Below, piece by piece: positions 1-62,450 of a stretch of DNA of 64,000 nucleotides. Both the position numbers and the translations under genes were made by a program. Within the stretch, counting starts at the first letter, position 1; each line of letters starts with the position of its first letter. The notes under the pieces are model-generated. The model had not been told where the DNA came from. It was given only the letters and a program-made list of their open reading frames with translations, and made no database searches. Source of the DNA: Lytechinus pictus (taxonomy: Eukaryota); the NCBI RefSeq assembly GCF_037042905.1, contig NC_087250.1, forward strand, positions 12,898,001 to 12,962,000, written 5' to 3'.

Positions 1-2092
1 TGAAAATCTTGCGTGTAGAAAAATAGAAATATTACTCGATTCAATTAGAACAATATAAACATGATATGAAAAACACATGGAAAGTTATTAAGCAAGCCTT
101 GAATATTTCAAAAAAGAAATCAAATATCACTAAAATAAGATTTAATAATCGGAATATTGATGATCCCACAGAAATCGCCAATATTTTAAATTCATACTTT
201 TCTACCATAGGGGAAAATTTGGCACAAAAAATTCCACAATCTAATAAGCATTTTTATAAATTCTTGGGACAACCTAATGCCAATTCCATTTTCTTCTATC
301 CGACTACTATTTATTAAGTGACCGATATTGTTTCCTCGTTGAATAATAAACACAGTGCTGGTCATGATGACATAAGTAATTTTATATTAAAAGGTACCAT
401 ATCGTCTATTGTTGAGCCCTTGACACATATATTAAATAAATCTATTTTGAGTGGTATTTTTCCTAAACAAATGAAAATTGCGAAAGTTATTCCCTTATTT
501 AAAAAGGTAGACGAGCTTGATGCTGGTAATTACCGTCCCATATCTTTACTCTCTTCTCTTTCTAAGATTTTAGAGAGATTAATTTTGGTTAGAACAACTA
601 AATTTCTTAATGTCAGTGGTATATTTACTAACTTTCAATTTGGTTTTAGACAAAAACATAGCACTATCCACGCTCTTTTAAATTTTGTGCATAAAGTAGC
701 CCATTCTTTGGATGATCATTCGCATCTAATTGGTATATTCCTGGACTTCTCCAAGGCATTCGACACTATTAACCACGACATTTTACTTTACAAGCTTTCT
801 CATTATGGAATACGTGGAATTGCCTTGGAGTGGTTCAAGAATTACCTTTAAAAAGAAAACAATATGTTTATTTAAATAATCACATCTCTGATCAACATGA
901 AATTAATTGTGGTGTCCCACAAGATAGTATATTAGGGCCTCTTTTATTCATTATTTACATTAACGATTTTCACAGATCATCTGACATTCTTTCGTTTATT
1001 CTTTTTGCAGATGATTCCAATGTATTTTCTGCTCACAAAAAACCCTCACCCCTTAGTTCAGATTATGAATTTGGAATTGCTAAATTTGACTCAATGGATA
1101 CGAGCCAATAAACTATCTCTTAATTTAAACAAAACCAAATATATGTTATTTAGTAATTCTATTGAATCTTTACCTTCTGACATTATCTTTGATGATACAC
1201 CTTTACAATGTGTTTCCCAAATTAAATTTTTAGGAATTATAGTTGATAATAAACTTTCTTGGAAACCCCACGTTCTTAATGTGAGCAAAACATTATCTCG
1301 TAATATTGGTGTAATTAATAAGTTAAAACACTATTTTCCTTCCGTCACATTACTCATGTTATACTCCTCTTTGATTTTACCTTACCTTAATTATGGAATA
1401 TTAGCATGGGGTAATACCCATAATTCTTTATTGGACAAAATATTAATTTTACAAAAGAAAACATTCCGAAATATATGTAATGCACCAGTTCGTTCTCATA
1501 CAGATCAATTGTTTCTGGAACATAAAATCATGAAAATAAAAAAAATATATTCATTTCAATTAGGTCAATTCATGTATAAATATAAAAATAATTTGTTGCC
1601 ACGCATATTTGATTTTATGTTTCCCCGAAACCAATCCCTCCATAACTATCCCACCAGGCAGTCAAATGAATTTCACTTGCCCCTCCTTAGAACGCATCTC
1701 GCACAAAATACTTACTTATATACAGGTCCAAGTTTTTGGAATTCCCTTAACGACGAGATTAAAGATGCCCGTTCTTTGCTGTCCTTTAAAAACAAACTAA
1801 AATTTATGCTCTTAAAATCTTAATTATATTTACTATTCTAAACTAAAATTTTGTATCCTTTTTTTTTTTTTTTTTTTTTTGCTAATCTATTATCAATGTT
1901 TATACTGAACATAATGCCTTATTTTTTCCAGTTAGACAATAAATAAAAAAGTTATAGCTTGTCTATACATTATATTGTACCTTTTATATTGTATATGTGT
2001 ATGCGTGTATGTGTGTATGTATGGGTGTGTATGTACGCGTGTGTACGTGTGTATTTGCATGTGTATATATGTATGTATGCGTGTGTGTATGT

Positions 2093-14749: not shown

Positions 14750-14829
14750 TATAAAGTGATCGAGTGTGTAAAGAGAGACACATCGTCAAATACATATTGC
14801 ACACATAACGCTAATAAACTTTTGCACAC
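14750..14829 (+). promoter_or_regulatory. Putative core promoter of ZIP gene A: TATA box and two MRE cores
   Basis: TATAAAG at 14750-14756; TGCACAC (MRE core TGCRCNC) at 14798-14804 and 14823-14829; context resembles the gene B promoter. Confidence 0.6.
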
Positions 14830-14885
14830 AGACTTTGGCTCATCGACATTCGCTTCATTGTTAGAAGACTTTGGGCAAACCAACA

Positions 14886-42279
<27,394 letters not shown>

Positions 42280-45313: not shown

Positions 45314-48300
45314 TTGAGTTGGGTAAGAAAATTTGCCATCAATGTAATGATATCAATGATTTAAAATTCATCATATTTTTATGCTTGTTATCTCAATTAC
45401 AATAAAAACATGTTTGTGTTTCTGTATGCTTGTACATTTCGGCAGATGTATACCAACATCGCGTATTTTACTCTAGATATTCTTTCATGACCATTATCTG
45501 TAACTTATGTAAATTAACAAACAGTGACATTAATACTATTTTGGTAAATTTTAAAAGAGAGCTTTTTGGTATATTGTTAACCTATTTTATGTGTGGTTAT
45601 TTTTAGAATTAAAATAAATTAAAGAATATATTCGTGTTGGTCCTTTGGCTATTTTGTTGTGAATGCTACTGCTCGTGATTATTCAATATAATGATATCAT
45701 TTGATTTGGTGTCGCCTGTGCCGGGGAGGCGAAAAGCGAACTGAATCACTATGACCCAGATAACGCTCCTCCCAACATACAGTGCTGGTATAAAGTTATT
45801 TGCTTTTGTCAGTGATTTTCACCAAATAATGTTTTTCACACTGCATTTCCTTATCCCCATACTATCTTTTTTGTTTCACACTGTCTTTCTTAACCCCATA
45901 CTATTTCCTTAGCCGGGGTAAACGCTTTAACCCCGGACTATATATCGCACAGCTCATGAATAACGCGTGCAATTTCGACTTCTGTGATTAGCTAATGCTT
46001 AGCCACACTTTTCTTCAGCCCGGTGTTGTTTCACACTGCAGTTCTTAGCACCGCAACAGGCCAGATAATATCGTACTATTTACCGTGCTAGCCCACTTTG
46101 GTAAATTGTAATGTGAAACCGAAGTGGGCTAAGCTTAACCCCGGGAACTTGGAGGGGCTAAAGCCCCCCCCCCCTAGCCCCACCAATTCTCCGGGGTTAA
46201 GGAACATTTCTGTAGTGTGAAAAGCATATTTAAAACCCATAACACAATGCACTCCTTCATGCTTCATGAGTGTTGAATGTACACCGTTCGAAAATTTATC
46301 CTTAAAATAAAAGAAGTTCCTGCAGCAGAGTCTCGAGAACACCTGTAACCTTTCCAGATTGCATTATCTTACATTATATCATGTAACATTACAGGTAATT
46401 GGTATTTGGTGTATGTACCCTTACAAATTTCCTTAAATACTACACAATTTTTACCTTTTTAAACAGACCTGTTCTGTTAAATTGTAGAAAAATTCCTGTT
46501 TTATAAATTAACATGTGATTCTGTTATTGCTTTCTGCAAAGTCTTGGTTTTTTCTGTAAAATCAGGTTTTTTTTAGCAGTGTAGACAACAGCACTACAAT
46601 ATGTCGGCGATCCCAGAGAAACAAACTTTATTGAATGTGATATTTTATCACCTGACTTCACAATTAAATATCTATTGTATATCATGACAGAACTTGAACA
46701 CTGTCAAAGATTATCATTTGTGGAGGGGTTCACTAAATTTTTAGCACTACTGTAATGGGTAGATGCAGAAATAAACACTACGGAAAGTAAGCCTACCCCG
46801 TTAAAATGAAACTATTTAGCATAACCCTTATAACAAAGTCTGACCATTACAAAACGGTTGGTGTGAATCTAAATTTATTAGATTACCCCTGCATGTGTTA
46901 AAATAAAAATAATCAAATATTTGTTTTGCAATTTTCTTTAAAATTGTCTGCGCGTGACCCCTGTAGCTGGTATTTTAATTAATTTCTTTGTTTTTACAAT
47001 TGATGACACGGTTTCGTATAATTTTTTATTTGATTTTTCATTTCAATACTCCATGTAAATTTATTTGATTCATTCGATTTCATCGTTAAAACTTCGGAGA
47101 ATACTCGGGGGTTTTCATGAAATACAAATAAAAAAAAATCATCTGTATATACCAATATATCCTTTTTGTTCAAATATAAAATCTCAGATAAATTTGCTTC
47201 TACATGGTATACCCTTTAATTTAATTCGTATCATACATAATTATTTTTGCCTTCTTCTTTTTACATGGGTGTCTATATAGGCCTATAGCGAAATAAATAA
47301 TCCCAATCGTTTGTGACATCTTACATAGTAAAAAAAGTTGTCTATTTTTTTATACAACACTGTTTACTATACAGTAAGCGTTTAAACAAGTGTATAAAAT
47401 AATAAACAACAAGGTTTAACTTGTATCATGTTTTATTCTTTACTGAATTAAGCATGGTTGTTCAAACTTCAAAACAACTGCTGTACAGTTCATTAAACAA
47501 CGTTTTTCATAGTTAATCGCATAATTTATTAAACAGATTTCCGGGGATAGACCCTGTGCTTTAAAGGAAGTTGACACGACAAAAGTCAGAAAATACAGAA
47601 CTATTTTCTTTCTTTGAATGCTTTTTTATTCATTTATTTTTTATTTTTTACTCCTACTAAACGTATTAGACCCCTGTTTACAAGGGGGGCAACTGAACAT
47701 CGCACAGACAAAAATAATGTTTACAGTAGTATGCAAAATAATCTACAATAAAGCAAAGTCGCCAGACCGTATCTAGGGGTGGGGATTGCGTGGGGGCAAG
47801 TGCCCTCGTTTTTTACCCATAACAAATACCGTAATACCTCCACTGTGCTCCTTGGACATGTTAAACGAGCAAGTGAAAATTGGTCCTTATTTGGAAAGAA
47901 TACATTTTCTTTGGATTAATGTTTCAGAGTCTATTTATTTCTTTGAGCGACTGAAATTAACGACCAATTGAGGAGCAGGTGTCGCTCATTACTTTCCTAT
48001 GGATAAAAAAAAATCACTGTCCCTCAAAATATTATGGTAAATCCAGGAATCGCATTTGACAGTAATGGAATCTCATTCAAATATTGATTTCATCGATTTG
48101 ACCTATATACACAATTCATAAAAGACCAAAGACAATTTGAAAATTATTTTCTTAAAATATGCTGGGATTGACTAATATGGTAGCTAACTAACCGTTAATA
48201 AAATTTAAAAAGTATACAAAAAATGTACAAACCAGACGTTACATGGAACGGAATGAAAAGAAAAAGAAGAAAAAAAAAACATTTCAGTAGTTCTATGGAT

Positions 48301-48958
48301 GGATTATTTGGAATAGACTAAATTGGATATTACATAATAAAAAGAAATAATCATCATCAAATTTATAAGTCAAATACCGATTCATATTCATCCACTTCTA
48401 AAACAAAATGAACACATTGAACTTGAGATGGTATTAAACTAGGGCCTACATTATTCAAGATAATCGAAAAAAGTTACAATGCATCAATAAGCAGATAAGA
48501 TAAACACCCATCTCTACTGCATTATAAATAAATATTAGTATTTACTGTTGGTTTTTTTTTCTTGAGCCAGAGACCAAAAATGATGTAATTTCAGTATAAA
48601 TATACATATAGACTGTTTCCGAAGTAAAAGTGATAAAATCATTTTGACCGCCTGATAGCCTAATCCTATCATGAGAAAGACGAGATTCTTGCGATGTAAC
48701 GAAATGTTACCCCATTCATACATAATGCATTTATTGATTTTTGTTGTCTGAAGAATGATTTTCATCAGCAGTCCTAGCGATGGGGTATTATCGACCCAAT
48801 GGCCCGTATTCTGAACTCGGGTTTAACTGAAACCGTGGTCTACCTCTGTGCTAAAATGATGGGAAGCCAAACATATCGTTTGTTCAGATGGTAGGCATAT
48901 GTTTGTGTTCTTTCCGAATTCTTCAATGGTGACGACAATTATCTCATGTTTCCTTCCT

Positions 48959-49558
48959 AGGTCAAGTCCACCCCAGAAAAATGTTGATTTGAATAGATGG
49001 AGAAAAATCAAACTAGCATAAACACTGAAAATTTCATCATAATCGGATGTGAAATAAGAAAGTTATGCCATTTTAAAGTTTCGCTTATTTTTCACAAAAC
49101 AGTGATATGCACATTTCAGTGGCATGCAAATGAGACAGTCGATGATGTCCCTCACGATTTCTTTTGTTTTGTTTTTGTTTGAATTATACAAAATTTCATT
49201 TTTTACACATTTGACAATATGGACCAACTTGACTGAACCATATAGTATTAAACTGTGCTAATTTCACATGCTCAGGGAGGAATTAATCGTTGTTTCACTT
49301 GACAATGAGGAGAAAATTAGAATATTTCATATTTCATATAATAAAATACAAAAGAAATAGTGAGTGGACGATGTCATCAGTCTCCTAATTTGCATATCAA
49401 TCAGGATGTGCATAACTGTTTTGTGAAATTAAAGCGAAACTTTAAAATGTCATAACTTTCTTATTTTACATCCGATTTTGATGAAATTTTCAGTGTTATG
49501 CTTGTTATATTTTTCTCTTTTTATTCAAATTAATTGTTTGTTGGGGTGGGCTTGTCCT
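48959..49558. mobile_element. Kolobok/T2-like MITE (opposite orientation) nested in a Harbinger-like MITE (48801-49696)
   Basis: AGGTCAAGTCCACCCC ... GGGGTGGGCTTGTCCT-TTAA; host element ends GGCCCGTATTCTGAA / TTCTGTATACGGGTC. Confidence 0.8.
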
Positions 49559-49908
49559 TTAAGAATGATATGAGAGTCAAATGAGTTGAAACTGTGAACC
49601 TCTTCTGTTTAAGATATATGCCACAATTAGATATCCATAGATAAACCACAAATTTAGACCGGAGTTAAAATTAAACACGACTTCTGTATACGGGTCCATG
49701 AGTTCGTTTCTAACCAAACATAATTAGAACAATAACTTTAGGCGTATTAAACGAATGAAATCCGTGATGACTCTGCTGGGGGCAAGATCCCACAGGGAAT
49801 TCAATGAGGAACTCGTTATTATAATGAAAATTGGTGAGGCGTGCAAACTGGGTGGGGGGGGGGGGGGAGGCTTCCTCAAAGGACACCATAGCAACTTGTG
49901 TTAAAGCA

Positions 49909-50077
49909 TGCACACAACGAGTTGCCTTTTCGCACCGCTGTGTTTGCTTTGTCATTGCACACAGGACTTTGGAAAGTTTATGGGACTATAAAGTGTCGTG
50001 TGCAAATAAAGAACGCGCTGTCTCTCTCTCTCCCATAGCGGCCTGTGTTATTCGCAAAGGTTTGAGTATTTGCACAC
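49909..50077 (+). promoter_or_regulatory. Putative promoter of ZIP gene B: TATA box with four MRE cores
   Basis: TGCACAC at 49909-49915, 49956-49962 and 50071-50077, and GTGTGCA (reverse) at 49998-50004; TATAAAG at 49987-49993. Confidence 0.7.
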
Positions 50078-50143
50078 CACCCTATAGTTTTACACTCATT
50101 TTGACACAGAACTTTGGACAAACCAGAGACAAGGAAAAGAACC

Positions 50144-50467
50144 ATGGCGGTGTCTTCAAGGCCTTATAGTGTCGTGGGCATAACACTACTTTTACTTTTC
50201 CTCCAATCTTGTTCGGTTTCGGCGGAAAAGGATTTGTTCAGACCCAGACGAGAAGCAGACGACCACGACCACGACCACCATTCAGATGAGGAACACTTTG
50301 TAGCTGTCGGAAATTATCTGTTAGATCAGGAGTTATCCGCACAGAGAACCTCCGGTGATTTTGAGGAAAATCATGACCAAAACATTACTTCAACACAAGT
50401 CGACATTTTGATTTTGACGCTCTTTTCAAGGGTTGGATGTGAAAGTCTTGTCAATAACTGCTCCAAG
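50144..50467 (+). CDS. ZIP gene B exon 1
   Basis: ACCATGG start; [36 protein letters not shown]|gta. Confidence 0.9.
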
Positions 50468-53400
50468 GTAGAAACAATTACTCTTTCATTGTTTTGAATA
50501 TTCAATTTAACGACTTTATCATAATAGGCCTACGTGTGGATTAACTGCTAGTCGAATTTATTTACTTAGCCCATACTGATCCGATTTTCCAAAAACTGAA
50601 CATATTAAAAATATCTGATATCAATATCTTACAAACTGCAAATTTTATGTTCAATTATACTAATCACTTGGTTCCAAGCAATCTTAATTCAATGTTTATA
50701 CGCAATACCCAGGTTCATGAACACAATACCAGTGGTTCCAACAATTTTCATCTAAGTAATACCAAAACAGTACTTGCTTATAAATCCATCAGACAAAGAG
50801 GACCTGATGTGTGGCACTCACTGCCTCGTGAAATAAAAGAATGTTCTTCGCTTTATTCTTTTAAACGTAAGCTAAAAAAACACATTATATCATTATGACT
50901 CATAAATTTTCTTAAAGTGTTTTTAGATCATTAATATATTGTTGCACTGGTTTCCAGTTCCCGATGGGGGAGGGGGGGGGGGCATTAGGGCATCTGTACA
51001 TTGTTTTTCATCATGTCATCATTTTAACCTGTGTCAATGTACATGTATGTATTGCCAGCCATGATGGCAATCGGGGTCTGCCTCGTCAAGACCTTTCGGT
51101 CTTTTGCAGTCTCCCAAATTTCATTTTGTATTTATGTATGTTTAATTGCTTTGTTACCAATTATTTATTTATCTGATATTGTATCTTGTATTATTATAAA
51201 TGGAATTTGAATAAACGGAATTGAAATTGAATTGAAAATTGAATTTCATATTGCAAAATCATATTCTATCAATAGTAAATTTTCATGGAATAACATAATA
51301 CACTGTCAGAATATTTACAGAATCCTGACAGATATTTGATTTGCATTTTCAAATGACTTATTCAATATAACACTCTAAATTAAGCATTGCAACAGAGGGT
51401 CGTGGGTTGGATACTAGCCATAGTGTATACCCTGAAGAGCAAGAAATTTTTGCTAAATGTTCCGCACTCAATCCAAGGCCCCGTAACGCAAAGGTTGAGA
51501 TGAATTGCAAATATGAAAAAACCGCACTGATTGGTTCCCGGTCAGTCTTTTGAATAGAGTGGTTATGCAACGATGATCTTGATTGGTCATTTGAATTTGA
51601 ATGACGACAGTAAATCATGCATAAAAAGCTATATTATTATTATCATCATTATTATTTTATTATATTATCACTATTATTATTATTATTATTGTTATTATCA
51701 TTGTTATCATTCGTATTATTATCATTGTTATTATAATTACTATTTTCAACAGTGATTTTATTCAATTAGCATTGTGTTGCTCTATGTTTGCACTACATTC
51801 ATCTATACCGAACAAAATTAACGAAAAACATTTAACCCCTCCCCCCCCCAAAAAAAAAAGTATGTTTCCTATACTACATTATCCTAAACTTGCCAAATAT
51901 TGGATGTTTTCTACAAAACATCACATAAATATTCTGGGCGTCGTTTAGGTTTGGTATGATAACAAAATCTCTATACCAATTTTACTATCAGCCAATCAGA
52001 TTTGAGAATTTCGGTAGCCTTAAAATTAATATTTCAAATTTGTTATCAAAACAAGCTTTAATGAAACGGGCCCCTGAAAAGGCGTGCTCTAATAAGATGA
52101 CAACGGCTCGTCAGGTGACGCTAGGGGCTTGTCACGTGATTCGTACACAATGATATTGACTTATCCCATATAGTGAAACGTGCCATTGTTATATTCTTTT
52201 CAACTTTCAGGTGGCGCCAAGTTATATTGATTGAAAAGAGGGTGAGCGGGTGGGGAAAATTGGCAACCTAAATACTAATTTTATTCTCAATTGAATATTC
52301 GGTGTAGGTAAAATCTATACTCAGGCCGGTTTTTATACTCCTTTTCCTTCATTTCCACATTTCTTCGTGTTCTAATTTTTCTAGGAACAATTTGGTAACC
52401 TCGAGGAAATCATTCGCAATAGTCCTTACCCATCGTGGGTATTGACAACCCCCCATGGCAAATTTATGGTGGCTCTGAGTTTCTGAAGCAACTTTGATCG
52501 CATTTGGTCCGTACACAGTAAAAACGTTATTTGAAAATTCATAATGATACAACGTTGCTTACGATATGAACCTTACAGTAGTTGTTAAACAGATAAACAA
52601 CCATGCTTAATTTATTGAAAACTGAATATCAAAGATTAAACTTTGTTGTGTAAAATTGTATACACTTCTTAAATATGTTTAAACAGCTGCTGTAAAGTTC
52701 GTTTAGTAAGCAGCGATGTACGTTTCGAGTAAAAATTCTTAGCGTTTTTTTACTACCAATAGTAGGACTTTTGAGAACGGTGGGATCTTTTGCAGATTGA
52801 TTTTAATTTTTGACATCGTTATAACCTAAATTTTGAATAAAATGTGTCGTCAAACCATTATAATTTTGAAAAACAACACCAACCACAAACAAAATAATGT
52901 CTTTGGGTAAATGTCTTTGGGAAAGAAATGGACTGGTATTGATTGATCGCCAAACAGATCTTTGAAGTCATGTCGATATTAAGGATTTCGCCTATTGATT
53001 TCAAAATTCATCATTACCCCTTTTAATTTCTTTAATGGTCAATGATCTGAAAATAAAAAAATTGTCAATTTCGCAATATAAATCGCGAAACTGGCGAGCA
53101 GACTGTCTACAAACCACTGGACTGAAAGTCCCGAAGTTTAATTTGCACCTAGTTTTTAGCAATTCAAATTGTAGCTTTTTCTATGTTCGCTGAACTATGA
53201 CTCAGCGTATTTTTTTCACGTTGAATCTCAAAATTGGTGTTTGTTCTGCACTATAGATCATTTTCATCCCAAAATACCGTCACATACTAATCTGTACATT
53301 CCACGATGTAAAAACGCCAGTGTTAATTTAACACCAGCCTGGTATCTATTTTGGTCCACTTCCTTTGACGAATGGATACCATGCGCGACCATAGGGTCTC

Positions 53401-56400
53401 GAATTCGAAAAGCACCCTAAACAAGTATTTTCTATATTCTGAAAATGCACCCCTTAACAAGTATATTGGCGTGTGAAACCCTACCCTTAACAATTATTGG
53501 AAATAAAACGATACTCAAGTACAGGGATATTTTGATTGTTATATGTCACGGATGTCGGTTTTACCTTTACCAACGTGTACATCATTTGGTTTAGTATACG
53601 GCCCCACCTCCCACACCTCGCGTAAATCAGTCTCTCAGCTTACACGTATTCTTCTCATTCTTCCTCTCTTTCCCGCTCTCTCCATTTTCGAACTTCTTCC
53701 CTCTTTATTTCCCTTTCCTCTCTCACTTTCTTTATGTTTTCTTTATCTTTTCTTGGATATCAGTCTCTATATTCATTGTCAAAATATCTATCCGAATGAT
53801 TCCTATGTTTATTGTGTATATTTGTATATAATTTACAAGTTGTTTCTTTTTTCTTTTTTTTTTCTTTTTGGCGAAATTCTATTTTGTTTTTGTTTATTTG
53901 CTTATATTCCTTGCATTGTATATTTATCTTGTATCATTTTGTACTTCTTGTTATGAACAAAATACTGGCAATTGCCAGTGAAGTTCTAATAAATTCAATT
54001 CAATTCACGTAGTGTTGAATCTTGGGGTAAAAAGTACATCCTTTATCAATCAGTTTAGTCTTTTTTTATACCCTCGCAAATTTGCCCCTAAACACTTAGC
54101 TTTCCTAGCAAAATAGATACCCTTTTTCATTATTTTAGTATTTTTGACACCCTTATTATGTTACGTACGTAACGTGCCTTATCTTGAAAAAGACATCCTT
54201 TTTACGTGTTTCTTTTGGTCGCGCATGGTATCCACTCGTCAATGTAAGTGCCCCCCGGGTTTGGTCCACACCAAAGGGGTGTTGAAACAAGATCAGTTAA
54301 AAATCAAACCGATAATTGGTGTTGCTTAAATGCCAAATTGGTGTTAGCCTAACGCCAAACCGGTGTTGGAATTGCTTAAGTTTTCTTAAATTTGTTTAAA
54401 AGGTAACAACTGTGTGCGATCATTCAAATACCCTGGGGAATAGTGTGCATTATGTTTTATAAGAGAGTAATGTGGATACTTATCATTAAATAAACAATCA
54501 TTTTGTATCTCAAAATCATGACCGGTCAATACAACTTGTCGTTAGTACAAGACAATAGAAAATTAAGTGACTGGTCACGTGATGAATCACTTGACCAGGA
54601 TCCATCACTGTTTTATCAATATGCAAGTACCGCAGCGTTTGGAAACTGCACCGACATGGGCACTTGCATAAAATGTGCAATATCAGCCCTCCGAACCTGC
54701 ATGCCCTAGATAGCTCCATAATTTGCCAACGCATATAACTCTGAGATATTAGAATTTGTGAATTGGCCTTTGTATGTTGACAGTGACGGTCTGTCGCTGG
54801 GTAATCAGCGTAATTCGTGACTATAGCTGTTACAGACTTTGGGAATATTGTTGTGTAATTATAATTGTATTATCCTTTTGAATTCAAAGTTCACGAGTAT
54901 AAAAATCTTTTTATTTCTATTTGCCGCAGTGCGCCGATGATTTTCAGAATGATCTATTCAACGCCCTCAACGTTGACCCGACGAATGGCTTCAGTGAGGA
55001 TGTCTTTCACGAAGCAGCTCCGCTACTGCTCTATGCTCTCTTCGACCTGGAGGCCTTGTGCGCCGCTGGACCTGGCGGAACAGACCTTGATGAGGAAGTA
55101 GTGCTTGGGGAGTTGATGTCTGCCGGAGAAAACGGGACGAATACCACCATGTCCGAAGAAGACCTGGAAGAAATCTTACATGTGATTAGTGAGAATTACA
55201 CGGCTACAACCCAAGCAACGGTAAACCAGGAAGACTATGTCCAAGCACTAGGCCCCATTTCATAAAAAAAACTTGTTATGATAGCAGGTCTGGCTGGAAT
55301 GGCAACTACCATGACAACACTGACAATTCTGCTTCTTGATTGGCTCTTCTCATGAAAGTTGACATTCCAGCAAAAGTTGCTATCGTAGCATCCTGCAAGA
55401 GTTGCTGTCATAGCAACTTTTTACGAATTGGGGTCCTGGACTCATTCAAAGATTCTATGGCCTAACTACTATCAAATTCAAGAACGTTTTGGTGGTACAG
55501 CCTGATATTTTAGGACTAGAATCGATAATTAAGAGTTTAGTCTAACATTAATTGCAGGGTGTCTCTATTCCTGGTAGTAACCGCATTTCTTCTAGCCAAC
55601 CTATAACCCATTTCAAAGTGGAACCGGTTGGCTCCTATACAAGGACATGGGAACTACAGAATTTGGTATTGATTTTGTTTGATTTTCGATGAATATTGGA
55701 CTAACGTCAGTAGTTCTGCATTGAATACAACCGATGGCAAATTGAGCCTTAGACTGCGGGATTTTCTTAGGGAAAAGTGGCCCCAAAGTGTTGTCATTAA
55801 TAAGTTATTCAATTCATTTTCATTGCTTCCTTTATAGGTTTCTCACTTTACATTCCTTGTTTTCATTTCGAATATTACAGTGTTTCGATGTCGAATCGGT
55901 GTTTACCGCAACTGTTGAAGACCACGAAGCCGGAGCGAACGAAAGCGAGGTCCATAGCGTCGCCGAGGAAGTGATCAACAGCATTCTTCACGGATACTGT
56001 ATCGGCGAGGCAAGTTTACCATCTACCGACGATTTTGTGGATGCAGTTTTCGATTCCTACGCTGCTGATGGAGTCATTCCTGAAGAAGGTAAAAAAAAGA
56101 TTCAGGGAGCGTTTCATCAACATTTTGGTCAAACAAGTTGTAGGTATCTTTCCTTTATTCTGATTTGCTAAGAATAGAAGAACAGTTGCTATGGCAACTG
56201 TCTGATAAATCAGAATTTGTCTGGGGAAAAAAATCCGACAAGTACTTTCATGAAACGCTCCCGAATTGTAGGCCAAGCAACTGTTCAGAGGGGGACTTTA
56301 CTTTTGACATGGGAACACATTCTTACCAAACATCGATAGCTCTATAGAAATATGAAATAAGTTTGAAGAAATTTTAGTACAAATCAACCAGAACTTGGCT

Positions 56401-59400
56401 GGCGAGTGATGGAAATTTTCATGTAAAAATTGTTAAAATCATCTTTGTCATTATTGTCATTATCATGGCTATGATTATAATTTAATATTTATCTTCATTA
56501 TAGATCAAGAGTTGACATGTTGGTTATTGTAATATAACGATATCTGTTAGACTGAATACGCAATACACTTTACAATGTTTGCTTTGGAATTCGGATATAT
56601 CATTTCACGTTTTCAAAATCACAGCAACAACAGGAGTATAAGTAGTACAAACATAGATAATGGATAGTTGTTGTCAAACATATTGTATGAATGTTAGTAT
56701 TAATAGAGATAGGCTCAGTAAATATGTCAACTTTGCTTTTTTAGAATTCGAGCATTTGGTTTCTGATCTTGGTATTGGGGGCTCTTCTGGAGAACATGAC
56801 GACCACGAGGACCACGATGACCATGATCACCGTCGAAGGAGACATGTCGACATTCCGGTGGCAGCGGTGGGATACATACATCGCACGGAGCGTGCCGTGG
56901 ATGACCACGATCATGATCACGATGGACACTCGGAGGAGTTAAACGTATCTTCTGTAAGTGCCTGTCTACAATTGTACAGAGACGGCGCCACAAACAATAT
57001 CAAGGAATAACGGGGAAATGAAACATTAATATAAGGAAAATGAGGCAATATTGAGAAGGGATTGTCTCATGAAGTAATACATTTTCTGTCTTCTGCAATT
57101 GGAGAAAAAAGAAATCTTGAAAAATCAACCCGTGGCGTTCTTGATAAAATTTACAAAATCATTTTTAAAAGGAAATGTTTGATAATAAACTTTAAATAAC
57201 TCGTTGCCATTTTTGTTGTTCATTTTGATTTATCTTGTAGTCATGTCAATTTTAAGTACACATATTCATTATAACTCCCCCCTCTCTCCCTGGTCATATG
57301 AATCTGGAAAGTAAATTATCTCACCCAATTATAACCCTATGATAACTCACTTTGCACTCCATATTATTCATTTCAAATATAATTGTAGGTGCTGTATAAA
57401 GCATGGCCAGTGGCAGCTTTCTTGCAAATGAATATTCACTCTTTGACATGTGAATGCATTTTTATCATTCAGACATGCTACACGGGGGAGGAACTCCTAG
57501 ACATTCACGGAATCGAACACGAAGCTGGTATCACGGAGTCCCAGTACGCAGCCCTGTGTCCATCCCTAGTCCAGCAGATCCTCTCCGGTTCCTGCAGCAG
57601 TGATGAACATAATGACCCAACTGATGCGATTACAAACGCCGAGAGTACGTGATATTAACAATAATGATTACAAAAACAAAATATATTATCAAAATACTAT
57701 AGTACTGTCGATGATAATGATGAAATGATGATGACAATGATGTTGTTGATGAAGATGATGACGATGATGACGATGATGATAAAGATGATGATGGTGATAA
57801 CGATGATGATGAAGATGACAGTGATGACGATGATGTTGTTAATGATGCTGATAATGATGATGATAATGTTGATGATGCTCATAGTGCTACAAGCAATAAT
57901 ACTATCCGGTGTCTGCAACATTGATGAACAAACTTTGCAATTTTTCTTATTTTTTTTTAGTTTGGGGCTATGGTAACCTGGTTGTCCTCATCATCAGTCT
58001 CCTCGCCGTTTTCGGGGCTATTTTTGTTCCATGCATGTCCGGTTTCGTGTACGAGGCTGTTATTCAAACAATGATGGCGCTCGCCGTAGCAACATTGACA
58101 GGGGACGCCTTGTTACATCTTATACCACAGGTAACCATTTTCTCTTTAAGATCTGGACCCTATTCACCATCCTCTCGGGGTGATACTAGGGACCAATCCC
58201 TTTGGCGCGAATTGTGCATCCGTAGAGTGCATTGTGGCATCTGGAGTGAACTGAGCATCTTTTGATACACTTTCACATCCGACAAGTTGTCAGATCTGAC
58301 ATCTTTCCCTGATGCTGATTGGCTGAGAGGCACCGTTTCTATGGTAACGGTCGGATAAGATGGGACATGTCGGATAAAACGTCACACAAGTCCTTTCATG
58401 AAACGCTCCCCAGAAGGAGGTATAATCCACTCTGGAAGGATGTAATGAGGGACCGGGTTGGCTCTTTTGCATTTCGAGAGTAGTGGCAAACACAAACGAG
58501 TATTACACTGTAAATACAAGAACTACCCAGGCTTTGCAAAAAAAGGGGAAGGGAATCCAATAATAGATATTTTATACTGTTTCTTGTACAAGAGCCCATC
58601 TTATATGTAATTTACATCGTGAAATTAAACCTAGATGCACCTGAAATTGATATAAAACTGACCAAAATTTCTCAATGGAGTATGAAAACAAAATAGTTTC
58701 ATTTTTATTGATTTACTCGAAATGAACTAGCATTGATTTGGGCCATTTTTGCATTCCTGCACTCAAATGTCCCAATGAATGGCATTATGCAATACAAATT
58801 ATTCAAAGAAATATCAAATATCTCTAAAACGCTCAAATTCCTTTATAAAATGCAAGTCAAATCATAATGGAGAGCTGAGAGACTTTTGTCGAGAGGTGAT
58901 GGACCGGGACAGTAGCGTCGTCTCATGAGTCTGGACAACTATATTTGCAACTGTTCGTCCGGTCCAAATCTTCGGATGATCTGCTGTCCCGGTCCTCCAA
59001 CTTTTGCCAAAAGCCTCTTAGCTTATTTGACTTGCATTTTCAAAGGAATTGGTGCGTTGTAGAGAGCGGCTGCTTTTTGTGATTGCAAAAACTCTCTTAA
59101 CATGCTTAATGTATGACTTACAAAAACACTGACTACATTTCCCATCTTCTTTTTGCAGGCTCTCGGATTACATTCTCATGGTGGTTCGGGCCACGACCAC
59201 GCCGACCACGGTCCGACCAGCCCCGAGCTAGCCTACGTATGGAAATGTCTCGTGATAGAGGTATTCATCTACGTATTCTTCCTGATCGAGAGGATCGCTA
59301 GTATGACTGACGTAAGTATATACGGGCATGCATGCTGCAGTCACACCGAAGGGATTGACTCCAAACCAACCAAGTTCATGTAATGGAAGTAACCTGATCA

Positions 59401-62400
59401 GTTTCGGCGATGTGACTGGGTCGTTATTATTTTTTTTAATTTCTAATGTTTCAACGGCCCTCTCCTTGATTATGATGATTGTTGTTGTTATTATTATAAT
59501 TATTAGTATCAATACTACTACTACTACTTCTACTACTACTATTACTACTACTACTGCCACTGCTACTACTACTACTGCTACTACTAAATCTACTACTAGT
59601 ACTACTACTAGGCCTACTGCTGCTACTATTAGTACTATTTATCAATATCATCATTATTATTAAGGCGTATTTAGCTAAAATATTTTGAGGGACTGGGGAG
59701 ATATGGCGAATTGACCAAAAGTTCTTAAAAGATGCATGCGAGTAAAAAACTGACCCTTTTAATATAAAAATCTTTTATTTCTTTATTTTTATAGATTTCG
59801 ACAGACTGTTCAGAAAATAATCTAATATTTCACTCTTTTCCCTTTCTATTCATTCTTCTTATCCTTTTATTCAACTTTTATTTTTTGTCTTATAATTCAT
59901 ATATTTTTTTTTTTTTTTTTTTTTTTGGGGGGGGGGGGTGAACACAAGCCCCAGTGTACGCCAGTGTTATTATTTTTTGTCATTAGGGTTGTTTTTATTA
60001 TCATATTATTATAGGTTTTGTTATTATCACCATCATCATATTCTTATTATTATTATCATTATTATTATTTTTATTATTTTATTGTTATTATTATTATTAT
60101 CAATTATTATTTAGATATATTATCACTTATTTTTATTATTCTCTTGATCATTATTATCTTCATCATTATCATTAGAATAATTTATATTATATATATAATT
60201 ATGATCCTTCCATGCGTTTCTCTCCATGCAGGTCTGTGGACATGATCATTCCTTAGACAAGGCAGCAATGGGAACAGACACTGCTAAGACCCCCATTACC
60301 GCCTTCCAACGGTCCACAAAGGTATCCGATTCTACAAAGCAACTGGTAAGAACATTTTGGCTTTTCTTGTCAAGCTCCCAGGGGGGAGGGGGTTTGGGGG
60401 CACTCACTTATATTGATCCGATTCTACACGGCAACTGGTAAGAACATTTTGGCTTTTCTTTTCAAGCCCCCAGGGGGAGGGGGCACTCACTTATATTGGC
60501 GGTATGGGCATGTGCGATCCATTTCACGCCTTGCCAGCCTTTCCTAAGCATATCCCTTTTCACCATTGTTCATTGCCCAACTCGTTCTCCCTCGTTCCTA
60601 AGCCCCTATTTTTCATGCCTCAGTTCTCGATCCCCCCCCCCCCCATTTCATGTTACAGTTTCCAACAAGCACCCCATTTGCAGAGGACCATCTGACTTGA
60701 CAGTTGTTAAGCCTCTCTTTTCATAAGCAAATCAGTTATCAAGGGTATGGTTTCAGACTTAGGGTCCACACAGTGCCCTGGGAACGATTTATTTACTGGA
60801 GGGGCTGATGTAAATTTGAAAAGCGAAAAAAAAAAAGGTTTCACTACAAAATGGAGGTCATATTGGTCCCGAGGAATTTGAAAAGACCAAAACACAAACA
60901 AACAATAGCAACAACAACAGAAAACAAACAAAAGACAAATCAAAACAACCCCCCCCCCCAAAAAAAAAAAAAAGGTTTTCGCTAAAAACTGAAGGTTAAT
61001 TTGGTTCTAAGAAATGTGAAAAGCAAGGAAAAAAAGAATAGAATAAAAAGGTTTTCACAACAAGAACAAAACATTTTATTTTGGTTACATTTTTCATTTC
61101 TTACACATCTTCCAGAATACCTGCAACACCCCGCTTCCCAGAGTTATGGGTCCACACACCCCTACTATTTCTAAAACCGAGTGCCCACCCCCTGGGTAAG
61201 CTCCTTTGTTCCATGTTGTTTTACTTTTCTTTGAGAAAGTCACTGCTATTTGGATAATTTCAAGTTCATCACTTCTTCTATTTTATAAATAGTTATGATT
61301 GACATGCTTTTCGATTTATTCGAGATAATCATGAGTGGAAAATCAATAAATACATCGTATTATTTACTTCAGTCTAATTACCCTTCTAACACATTCTTTT
61401 AACAAATTTGGCCGATTCCTAGCGAAAGGCATTCATTATTTCATATCAGAGGTAAAAGAAAACGAGATAAGCTCCTGCAAAAAAAAAGAGAATAAACTGT
61501 TAGTTTCAGATGACCCCAGAATGTCGGACCACCATCGAGAGCTCCGAAACGTAGGACGAATTGCTGTTCCGGATCACCAGTTTTTGACAAAGACTTCCCA
61601 GCTGTTCATTGTCATTTGACAGGCATTTTCATTAATATACGATGTTCTTGAATTCCTTCAAAATAGGTATTATTATTATGTTTTTTTTTTACAGGCAACG
61701 GCTGAGAACGGAGAAGATCAGAAGGTCAGATACATGAAAGGTAAATTTTATGATTTTTGAGGCATTCTTTTTCTTCAAATCTTTTATGTAAGCAGTATGG
61801 CAGATGCATACTTTCCCTAATGCCCGATATCGGATAGATGATTTTTTTTTTGTTTTTTATAAAAGGAAAAAAAAGTGCTCAAGTAGAATAATAATAAACC
61901 TTTGAGTCAGTTAGTTATAAAGCGACTCGCTGAATCTTTATGACCGTGGACTGGTGGAAAACGGGTAAAAGGCAATGGAGTTGTAAAAAGAAATGGTTGT
62001 GAAATGAAAATGAACTTCCATGAAAACAGACTCGAATGCCTGTCATGCCAAAGCACAACAGAAAAGTCTTTGTCGAAAATTGGTGATTCAAAACACCAGT
62101 TTCGTTCTGGATTCTGTAAGAAAGACATAATTGCAATTTTCGTCAGCTCCGAAACTTAGGACGAAATCAGAGTGCTGTTCCGGTTCACCAATTTTAGACC
62201 AATACCTCCCAGCTGTTCTTTGCCATTTTACCGGCATTTTCAAAATGTCAATACATTTTCTGTGTTGTTGAATCCTTCTCTTTTCCAAATTCTTCAGGTT
62301 GTGGGACCGTTCCTTTCATGATCGTGGTGGGGGATGCTCTTCATAATTTCGGAGATGGACTTGCGATCGGGGCTTCATTCACTCTTGGGATCTCTGCCGG

Positions 62401-62450
62401 TCTCAGCACGAGCATCGCCGTGTTCTGCCACGAGCTGCCTCACGAGTTAG
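50144..62450 (+). CDS. SLC39A12-like: Gene B: tandem paralog, ZIP12/ZIP4-like zinc transporter; exons 1-10, 3'-partial
   Basis: join(50144-50467, 54930-55220, 55881-56088, 56745-56953, 57473-57644, 57961-58130, 59159-59311, 60232-60345, 61695-61740, 62298-62450) is open, GT-AG, with the same phases as gene A. Motifs [36 protein letters not shown]. Exons 11-12 were not found before 64000. Confidence 0.92.
50560..51245 (+). mobile_element. L2/CR1-group LINE 3' fragment in intron 1 of gene B
   Basis: ..[40 protein letters not shown] matches the C-terminus of the 1005-1823 ORF type; tail AATAAA..(ATTGAA)n. Confidence 0.8.
53365..54259. mobile_element. Non-autonomous TIR element with a nested retroposon tail
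   Basis: TTGACGAATGGATACCATGCGCGACCA (53365) inverted with TGGTCGCGCATGGTATCCACTCGTCAA (54216-54242); the inner segment ends AATAAATTCAATTCAATTCA at ~54006. Confidence 0.65.
54930..55220 (+). CDS. ZIP gene B exon 2
   Basis: [16 protein letters not shown]|gtaa; 291 nt. Confidence 0.9.
55881..56088 (+). CDS. ZIP gene B exon 3
   Basis: [14 protein letters not shown] g|gtaa; 208 nt. Confidence 0.9.
56745..56953 (+). CDS. ZIP gene B exon 4
   Basis: [26 protein letters not shown]|gtaagt. Confidence 0.9.
57473..57644 (+). CDS. ZIP gene B exon 5
   Basis: [25 protein letters not shown] a|gtacgt; 172 nt. Confidence 0.9.
57961..58130 (+). CDS. ZIP gene B exon 6
   Basis: [23 protein letters not shown]|gtaa; 170 nt. 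Confidence 0.93.
59159..59311 (+). CDS. ZIP gene B exon 7
   Basis: [20 protein letters not shown]|gtaagt; 153 nt. Confidence 0.92.
60232..60345 (+). CDS. ZIP gene B exon 8
   Basis: cag|[16 protein letters not shown]|gtaaga; 114 nt. Confidence 0.85.
61695..61740 (+). CDS. ZIP gene B exon 9 (46-nt small exon)
   Basis: (t)n-acag|[15 protein letters not shown] g|gtaa. Confidence 0.82.
62298..62450 (+). CDS. ZIP gene B exon 10 (TM4-TM5)
   Basis: [30 protein letters not shown] g|gtaa; 153 nt. Confidence 0.95.

What the first reader, a model, noticed from the sequence alone, without database searches (positions are those of the whole stretch)
49909..50143. Four identical metal-response-element cores straddling the TATA box of a ZIP zinc importer (gene B)
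Seen: TGCACAC occurs four times in ~170 bp (49909, 49956, 49998 reverse, 50071). Two are upstream of TATAAAG (49987), one lies 5 bp after it and one is in the presumptive 5' UTR. A rough estimate at about one-third GC gives one TGCRCNC per few kb by chance. Established: TGCRCNC is the MTF-1 binding core. MTF-1 usually activates metallothionein and ZnT1, but in vertebrate Zip10 it represses through MREs downstream of the start site. Inference: this ZIP4/12-type importer is under direct zinc/MTF-1 control, plausibly repression by promoter occlusion or a Pol II roadblock.
Basis: partly seen in the sequence, partly recalled or inferred. Interest (0 to 1): 0.72.

Follow-up and report, generated by a model that had tools for sequence, protein, structure and literature searches.

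The report
Metal-response cluster on urchin zinc importer
The start of a sea-urchin zinc-uptake gene carries a real cluster of binding-site motifs for the zinc sensor MTF-1, probably a switch that turns uptake down when zinc is plentiful, as is known for a different zinc importer in mice and fish, but binding and direction are untested.

Summary
The four TGCACAC cores are present as described, with a fifth MRE core at 49839. They lie in front of a spliced, transcribed ZIP4/12-type zinc importer, identical over 613 of 613 residues to Lytechinus pictus XP_063957010.1. The cluster exceeds chance (1 of 20,000 local shuffles). Its flanks fit the published extended MRE better than the window's other cores (P=0.0035). 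A tandem paralog (gene A) has the same TATAAAGT with two cores downstream of it. In a related species no change is listed in the four cores (P=0.07–0.22, not significant; one allele), while the fifth core and the TATA are altered. The start site, zinc response and MTF-1 binding were not measured, and a Lytechinus MTF-1 was not identified. Best reading (0.5): MTF-1 represses the gene in high zinc, through a strong site 4 bp behind the TATA and a 5'-UTR site. Activation, as at metallothionein promoters, remains possible (0.2). It works like vertebrate Zip10 regulation, but the gene is not a Zip10 ortholog. No paper on this gene's regulation was found, and the scan's look-ups showed no earlier MRE finding. 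New member of a known kind; interest 0.35.

The parts
49839..49845 (-).
49909..49915 (+). MRE core 1; weak flanks (1 of 5 to the published 3' flank; its first three 3' letters AAC match human MT1A MRE-b, reported as low-affinity)
49956..49962 (+). MRE core 2; runs directly into an ACTTTGG motif, a unit shared with the gene A promoter
49965..49972 (+). RACTTTGG motif overlapping the 3' flank of core 2 (resemblance to an HNF4-type half-site is recalled, not tested)
49987..49994 (+). TATAAAGT, putative TATA box; same 8-mer as in gene A; substitution plus 1-base insertion at 49990 in organism C
49998..50004 (-). MRE core 3, best-flanked site in the window; its 3' flank (49993-49997) abuts the TATA element
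50071..50077 (+). MRE core 4, 73 bases before the ATG, about +54 from a TATA-predicted start
50110..50123 (+). Second RACTTTGG motif followed by CAAACCA, shared with gene A (14867-14881)
50144..50467 (+). Gene B coding exon 1 (ATG at 50144); spliced to exon 2 in an RNA-type contig
54930..62450 (+). Gene B coding exons 2-10 (54930-55220, 55881-56088, 56745-56953, 57473-57644, 57961-58130, 59159-59311, 60232-60345, 61695-61740, 62298-62450); the gene continues beyond the window
14750..14757 (+). Gene A putative TATA element TATAAAGT
14798..14829 (+). Two TGCACAC cores of paralog gene A (14798-14804, 14823-14829), both downstream of its TATA (+18 and +43 from a TATA-predicted start); the second runs into ACTTTGG
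14886..42279 (+). Gene A, tandem ZIP4/12-type paralog, about 70% identical to gene B at protein level

Best explanation
The cluster is a functional set of MTF-1 binding sites on the proximal promoter and 5' UTR of a plasma-membrane ZIP4/12-type zinc importer, and its net effect is to lower transcription when zinc is plentiful. Shown: the motifs, their excess over chance, the fit of their flanks, the gene and its splicing, and the paralog's cores. Inferred: zinc-loaded MTF-1 binds best at core 3, whose flank touches the TATA element and so would hinder assembly of the start complex; it also binds core 4 in the 5' UTR, where it would stall Pol II as at mouse Zip10. When zinc is low MTF-1 leaves and uptake capacity rises. 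Gene A, with both cores behind its TATA, is the cleaner Zip10-like layout.
For: Cluster beyond chance. Matches to the published 3' flank gGCCc (PMC9820605) are 1, 2, 3, 2, 3 for the five gene B cores against a mean of 0.81 for the 27 cores outside the two promoters, one-sided P=0.0035. A T lies directly 5' of the core in 6 of 7 promoter sites against 6 of 27 others. With a recalled 14-bp MTF1 consensus the top 4 of 34 core sites are all in this promoter, and core 3 matches 13 of 14 (0.007 expected in the window); the change at 49996 in organism C removes the one mismatch. No substitution or gap is listed in cores 1-4 in organism C. The 49901-50084 block has 9 substitutions in 184 bases against 18 in 141 just upstream (P=0.014), close to exon 1 at 9 in 298. 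Gene A has cores at +18 and +43; mouse Zip10's repressive MRE is at +17 (PMC3124522). An RNA-type contig of gene A is long enough to include both cores if colinear, and no good splice acceptor lies there (best score 0.2 against a median of 8.9 for true acceptors). Catfish zip10, zip13 and zip14 are lowered by zinc through MREs (PMC9321221).
Against: No start site, expression change or binding was measured. Unchanged cores are expected by chance in 6.6% of placements over 49760-50084 and 22% within the block. The block boundary was chosen after seeing the data, and P rises to 0.07 without the G run. Only 27 of the 31 differing letters in the relative's contig are listed with positions, and only one allele (half depth) was seen. 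The TATA element and core 5 are changed in that allele. Three of five cores lie upstream of the TATA, the layout of activated metallothionein genes. Two overlapping reads of run X21, probably one fragment, span about 49919-50044 across the TATA in the same orientation as exon reads. Acceptor-like AGs exist at 50039 and 50110 (scores 6.5 and 5.1). A TATAAAGT flanked by two TGCACAC also occurs in an intron of gene A (35450-35502), so such a layout can arise without a promoter. A Lytechinus MTF-1 was not identified here.
Confidence: 0.5

Rival explanations
1. The sites bind MTF-1 but the net effect is activation: the importer is induced by zinc or cadmium to load metal into storage or excretory cells.
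For: Three cores lie at about -178, -108 and -61 from a TATA-predicted start, as in activated MT and ZnT1 promoters (PMC3124522). Drosophila Zip71B mRNA is induced by zinc for excretion (PMC5309981; MTF-1 dependence not shown in the passages seen). Sea-urchin metallothioneins are zinc-induced (PMC5412396).
Against: The best-flanked sites are the two behind the TATA; core 1 has weak flanks and core 5 is lost in organism C. Gene A has no TGCRCNC core in the 178 bases before its TATA, only two behind it.
Confidence: 0.2
2. The motifs are not zinc switches. They come from local duplication of a short TGCACACAG-ACTTTGG unit, or are read by another factor, and are kept for a reason unrelated to zinc.
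For: The unit occurs at 49954 and 14821 and in decayed form near 50100. Core-level conservation is not significant. TGCACAC is about twice as common in the window as shuffles predict.
Against: Cores 1, 3 and 4 have different flanks and opposite orientations, so they are not copies of one unit. The flanks fit the MRE model independently of the core. The gene is a zinc importer, the expected kind of target.
Confidence: 0.2
3. The true start lies upstream, either just above 49919 or in a distant non-coding exon. The TATA element is then irrelevant and the cores act from the 5' UTR or an intron, possibly still repressing, as the intronic MRE cluster of zebrafish zip10 does.
For: One probable fragment in run X21 crosses the TATA. 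The TATA is altered in organism C. Acceptor-like AGs lie at 50039 and 50110. The gene A contig reaches about 14751, the TATA itself, if all 155 loose letters are genomic.
Against: One fragment may be read-through or DNA, and that run had no reads assignable to gene B exon 1. Both paralogs keep the identical TATAAAGT 136 and 157 bases before the ATG. A start above 49908 would put a 27-codon upstream ORF in the leader.
Confidence: 0.1

Closest known systems
Mouse Zip10 (Slc39a10) repression by MTF-1 (PMC3124522; passages read)
   Same: LIV-1-family zinc importer with an MRE core close behind the presumed start (+17 in mouse; predicted +54 in gene B, +18 and +43 in gene A).
   Different: Mouse Zip10 has one functional downstream MRE, with start site, binding and Pol II stalling shown. 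Gene B has five cores on both sides of a putative TATA, none tested, and belongs to the ZIP4/12-type group, not ZIP10.
Zebrafish zip10 intronic MRE cluster (Zheng et al. 2008; seen only as cited in PMC3124522)
   Same: A cluster of MREs on a zinc importer, linked to repression by zinc.
   Different: The zebrafish cluster is intronic; here the cluster sits at the proximal promoter, and the first introns hold only background numbers of cores.
Yellow catfish zip3, zip8, zip10, zip13, zip14 promoters (PMC7503416 abstract; PMC9321221 passages)
   Same: MTF-1 sites on ZIP promoters; negative regulation by high zinc reported for zip10, zip13 and zip14.
   Different: Single sites 345 to 2,017 bases upstream, tested in HEK293T cells; no dense cluster at the core promoter.
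Metallothionein and ZnT1 promoters (MTF-1-activated)
   Same: Several MREs within about 200 bases of a TATA element, in both orientations.
   Different: Their MREs lie upstream of the start; here the best-flanked sites lie behind the TATA, and the target is an importer.
Vertebrate ZIP4/ZIP12 (Pfam Zip + ZIP4_domain + EF-hand_Zip; bat ZIP4 ectodomain PDB 4x82)
   Same: Same three domains above cut-off, HNFGDG and HELPHE metal-site motifs.
   Different: Orthology to ZIP4 versus ZIP12 is unresolved in invertebrate deuterostomes (PMC4222902). For zip4 the passages seen name KLF4, not MTF-1, as the factor raising it in low zinc.

Membership tests
Metal response element (MTF-1 site) | TGCRCNC core | tested here: met
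   Five cores at 49839-50077
Metal response element (MTF-1 site) | Flanks resembling NTGCRCNCgGCCc | tested here: met
   Better than the 27 other cores, P=0.0035; individual sites match 1-3 of 5 (consensus from PMC9820605)
Metal response element (MTF-1 site) | Clustering near the gene start beyond chance | tested here: met
   1 of 20,000 local shuffles; 8 of 200,000 random placements
Metal response element (MTF-1 site) | Conservation in orthologous promoters | tested here: inconclusive
   No listed change in 4 of 5 cores in one allele of organism C; P=0.066-0.22; 4 of 31 differing letters unplaced
Metal response element (MTF-1 site) | Zinc-dependent binding by MTF-1 | not testable with these tools
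   Needs EMSA, ChIP or CUT&RUN
Metal response element (MTF-1 site) | An MTF-1 gene in the organism | not tested
   No genome was held. MTF-1 is reported in human, fly, Daphnia (PMC2889900) and amphioxus (PMC3419175), and is invoked for sea urchin in PMC4768315
Zip10-type MTF-1 roadblock repression | MRE downstream of a mapped start site | tested here: inconclusive
   Gene B RNA contig begins at 50125, after all cores; no start sites listed. The gene A contig would include both its cores if colinear
Zip10-type MTF-1 roadblock repression | mRNA falls with zinc and rises with chelation, dependent on MRE and MTF-1 | not testable with these tools
   No such data found in the papers read or searches
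Zip10-type MTF-1 roadblock repression | Target is a ZIP10 ortholog | tested here: not met
   Groups with vertebrate ZIP4 and invertebrate ZIP4/12-like proteins (bootstrap 92) apart from vertebrate ZIP10 (100); carries ZIP4_domain and EF-hand_Zip
ZIP4/12-type LIV-1 zinc importer | Zip, ZIP4_domain and EF-hand_Zip domains | tested here: met
   184.4, 66.8 and 43.2 bits against cut-offs 35.1, 26.3 and 27
ZIP4/12-type LIV-1 zinc importer | HNFxDG and HExPHE transport-site motifs, CPALLY-like motif (motif names recalled) | tested here: met
   HNFGDG 578, HELPHE 607, CPSLVQQIL 373 in P0005
ZIP4/12-type LIV-1 zinc importer | Zinc uptake at the plasma membrane | not testable with these tools
   Inferred from family
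TATA-box core promoter | TATA about 30 bases before the start and conserved | tested here: inconclusive
   Identical 8-mer in both paralogs but altered in organism C, and start not mapped

The most novel reading that the evidence does not exclude
Sea urchins recruited MTF-1 repression onto the ZIP4/12 lineage independently of vertebrate Zip10, using a different mechanism. One high-affinity site blocks the TATA element. A second MRE overlaps an ACTTTGG activator site (HNF4-like by recall), so zinc-bound MTF-1 displaces a tissue activator. The overlapping unit is shared by two old paralogs, which would then have different zinc set-points.
Probability: 0.15. Interest if true: 0.6.

Novelty: new member of a known kind. 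Interest (0 to 1): 0.35.

Why it matters
MTF-1 acting as a repressor of zinc uptake is documented for vertebrate Zip genes. A working example on a ZIP4/12-type gene in an echinoderm would show that this feedback is older than vertebrates or arose more than once. The promoter is compact, and the two paralogs differ in layout (cores on both sides of the TATA versus only behind it). They therefore give a direct test of the proposal that MRE position decides whether MTF-1 activates or represses. The genes could also serve as low-zinc markers alongside metallothionein in sea-urchin toxicology. The principle itself is known, which limits the surprise.

Tried and rejected
No whole genome was held, so a genome-wide MRE background, a metallothionein positive control, the third paralog's promoter and an MTF-1 search were not possible. 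The run search listed no holder on record as RNA; this says nothing on expression. A metagenome scan with exon 1 found no relative. Run X21 gave 16 laid reads; its exon reads carry gene A letters, so it gave no start site for gene B. The 17 loose letters before 49995 on the organism B contig (depth 2.6) match nothing in the window with up to 3 mismatches, so they give no evidence of an upstream exon. A repeat origin of the block was rejected: the nearest repeats end near 49694. A divergent gene sharing the promoter was not supported: only four ATG-started frames of 53-81 codons lie on the minus strand of 46000-50000, and they were not searched further. The 27-codon Cys/His-rich upstream ORF at 49908 is probably a by-product of the motifs; the insertion at 49990 removes its stop in organism C. 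The recalled 14-bp consensus could not be confirmed as a string in print; PMC9820605 confirms only that the JASPAR matrix is 14 long and gives the older consensus, which I used as the primary flank test. No zinc-response data for these genes appeared in PMC1929154 (text and 2 supplementary files), PMC9231221 (text only) or PMC12189403. A paper on PVC leachate in sea-urchin embryos, recalled as relevant, is not held. 'Mtf1' in PMC2702171 is melanotransferrin.

Full report
Observation. All four TGCACAC cores are at the stated coordinates, and TATAAAG is at 49987-49993, 4 bases before the reverse core. A fifth core, TGCACGC, lies at 49839-49845 on the minus strand. The window holds 34 TGCRCNC (shuffle mean 21.8) and 13 TGCACAC (mean 6.2). 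Random placement of 13 sites gave four within 170 bp in 8 of 200,000 trials. Local dinucleotide shuffles of the 314 bp before the ATG gave four or more cores in 1 of 20,000. The block is not part of a repeat in this window. One caution: TATAAAGT alone is not enriched (8 found, 6.4 expected), and one copy at 35480 in an intron of gene A is also flanked by two TGCACAC, near an 11-bp minisatellite.

The gene. Ten GT-AG exons from 50144 to 62450 give an open frame of 613 residues that runs off the window. It is identical over 613 of 613 residues to P0005, Lytechinus pictus XP_063957010.1 'ZIP4-like'. P0005 carries Pfam Zip, ZIP4_domain and EF-hand_Zip above cut-off, matches the bat ZIP4 ectodomain 4x82 and has HNFGDG and HELPHE. 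A tandem paralog, gene A, spans 14886-42279; a third paralog, P0004, is recorded on a contig of the same length and is not in the window. I built a tree from the membrane part of 32 of the 86 proteins held, rooted on insect foi. The urchin genes group with vertebrate ZIP4 and invertebrate ZIP4/12-like proteins (bootstrap 92), apart from vertebrate ZIP10. Inner branches there are weak (35, 41), and the set lacked vertebrate ZIP12, ZIP5, ZIP8 and ZIP14. A full-length tree of 11 urchin proteins puts gene A with the Strongylocentrotus pair (99/99) and gene B outside (midpoint root), which suggests an old duplication; the membrane-only tree does not resolve this.

Are the cores MTF-1 sites? The flanks give a test independent of the core. 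Against the published 3' flank gGCCc (PMC9820605, passages and Table 1) the five gene B sites score 1, 2, 3, 2 and 3 of 5, and the 27 cores outside the two promoters average 0.81 (one-sided P=0.0035). A T precedes the core in 6 of 7 promoter sites and 6 of 27 others. With a 14-bp MTF1 consensus that I recalled and could not confirm as a string in print, the four best of 34 core sites are all in this promoter; core 3 matches 13 of 14, where 0.007 such matches are expected in the window. Core 1 is the weakest; its first 3' letters match human MT1A MRE-b, reported as low-affinity. Gene A has the same TATAAAGT and two TGCACAC behind it, at +18 and +43 from a TATA-predicted start. Two such cores arose in 61 of 20,000 local shuffles, but two TGCRCNC in 1,043 of 20,000, so gene A alone is modest evidence. 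Both promoters also carry RACTTTGG twice, 4 of the 9 copies in the window, and in each promoter one copy directly follows an MRE core. Its likeness to an HNF4-type site is recalled and untested.

Conservation. I laid 4 of the 24 runs listed. A DNA contig of organism C, a different species label, covers 49729-50114 with 31 differing letters and 7 gap letters. Twenty-seven substitutions and five gaps are listed by position; 22 rows of the whole table were not shown, so up to four differences of this contig are unplaced. None of the listed changes touches cores 1-4. Core 5 is changed at 49844, and the TATA has a substitution and an insertion at 49990. The change at 49996 brings core 3 to a full match with the recalled consensus. 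Four random 7-mers stay unchanged in 6.6% of placements over 49760-50084 and 22% within 49901-50084, so core conservation alone is not significant. The block as a whole changes less than the DNA just upstream: 9 of 184 against 18 of 141, P=0.014, or 0.07 without the G run, or 0.035 if all four unplaced differences fall in it. Its rate is near that of exon 1 (9 of 298). The boundary was chosen after the fact. The contig has half the depth of the exon contig, so only one allele was seen. A low-depth contig of organism B covers 49995-50177 with 2 differing letters, the listed one outside the cores.

Transcription. Run X1 holds contigs that join exon 1 to exon 2 for both genes, so both are transcribed and spliced. 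The gene B contig starts at 50125, after all cores, and gives no start site. The gene A contig has 155 loose letters before its aligned part. If they are all genomic and colinear, the RNA reaches about 14751 and includes both cores. That is 30 bases above a TATA-predicted start, which means an earlier start, an allele difference or library adapter; only the last 30 letters were shown. No good acceptor lies in that stretch of gene A, whereas gene B has moderate ones at 50039 and 50110. In raw RNA run X21, 16 reads were laid. The exon reads are gene A's. Two overlapping reads, probably one fragment, cross the gene B TATA from about 49919 to 50044; this may be an upstream start, read-through or DNA.

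Mechanism. The most likely reading is zinc-dependent repression by MTF-1 (0.5). The best site abuts the TATA element, a second good site lies in the presumed 5' UTR, the paralog has only downstream cores, and an importer is the expected target of negative feedback. Mouse Zip10 is repressed through an MRE at +17 that stalls Pol II (PMC3124522, passages), and catfish zip10, zip13 and zip14 are lowered through MREs (PMC9321221, passages). Activation (0.2) fits the three upstream cores and has a precedent in zinc-induced fly Zip71B (PMC5309981, passages). No zinc role (0.2) and a different start site (0.1) complete the set. Every step from binding onward is inferred. MTF-1 is reported in human, fly and Daphnia (PMC2889900, passages) and amphioxus (PMC3419175, passages), and is invoked for sea urchins (PMC4768315, passages); I did not identify it in Lytechinus.

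Prior knowledge and novelty. Ten full-text searches listed no paper on MREs or zinc regulation of an echinoderm ZIP4/12-type gene. The library lacks most subscription journals, and I did not open the supplement of PMC9231221, so such data may exist. Other papers consulted: PMC4222902, PMC12189403, PMC5412396, PMC2702171, PMC9231221 and PMC4101491 (passages), PMC7503416 (abstract), PMC1929154 (passages and 2 supplementary files). Four look-ups in the scan's own notes showed no earlier MRE finding; one note on another ZIP gene of this genome prompted a check for dibasic sites. The finding works like Zip10 regulation, but the gene is not a Zip10 ortholog. It is a new member of a known kind: a well-supported, testable prediction and no new principle. 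Interest 0.35.

Noticed in passing
window 14886-26467: Gene A exons 1-8 form an open 543-residue frame, and exon 1 splices to exon 2 in RNA. The newer database model P0006 (XP_054757221.2, 553 aa) starts only at residue 166, so it seems to omit an intact N-terminus.
   Followed up: partly
window 49965-49972, 50110-50117, 14831-14838, 14867-14874: RACTTTGG occurs twice in each paralog's promoter or leader (4 of 9 copies in the window), once fused to an MRE core; a candidate activator site, HNF4-like by recall.
   Followed up: partly
window 35450-35502: TATAAAGT flanked by two TGCACAC inside gene A intron 6, with poor MRE flanks, near an 11-bp minisatellite at 35729-36609 (81 copies); probably a chance mimic of the promoter layout.
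   Followed up: partly
   Followed up: partly
window 48959-49558: A 600-bp self-palindromic element (75% inverted identity) with about ten related pieces elsewhere in the window, MITE-like, about 280 bases upstream of the fifth MRE core.
   Followed up: partly
window 49908-49991: 27-codon upstream ORF with 4 Cys and 2 His running through cores 1 and 2; matters only if the start lies upstream; its stop is lost in organism C.
   Followed up: partly
P0001 versus P0005: Two database versions of gene B from the same species differ at 20 of 613 residues, high allelic divergence for one gene.
   Followed up: no
organism C contigs, window 49729-50481: Organism C holds a gene B ortholog with its promoter, although the protein searches listed gene B only for L. 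pictus.
   Followed up: no
window 27-1823, 50545-50898, 26600-29200: Fragments resembling non-LTR retrotransposon reverse transcriptase frames (by inspection of translations, not searched), and a 2.6-kb (ACT)n-type microsatellite in gene A intron 2.
   Followed up: no
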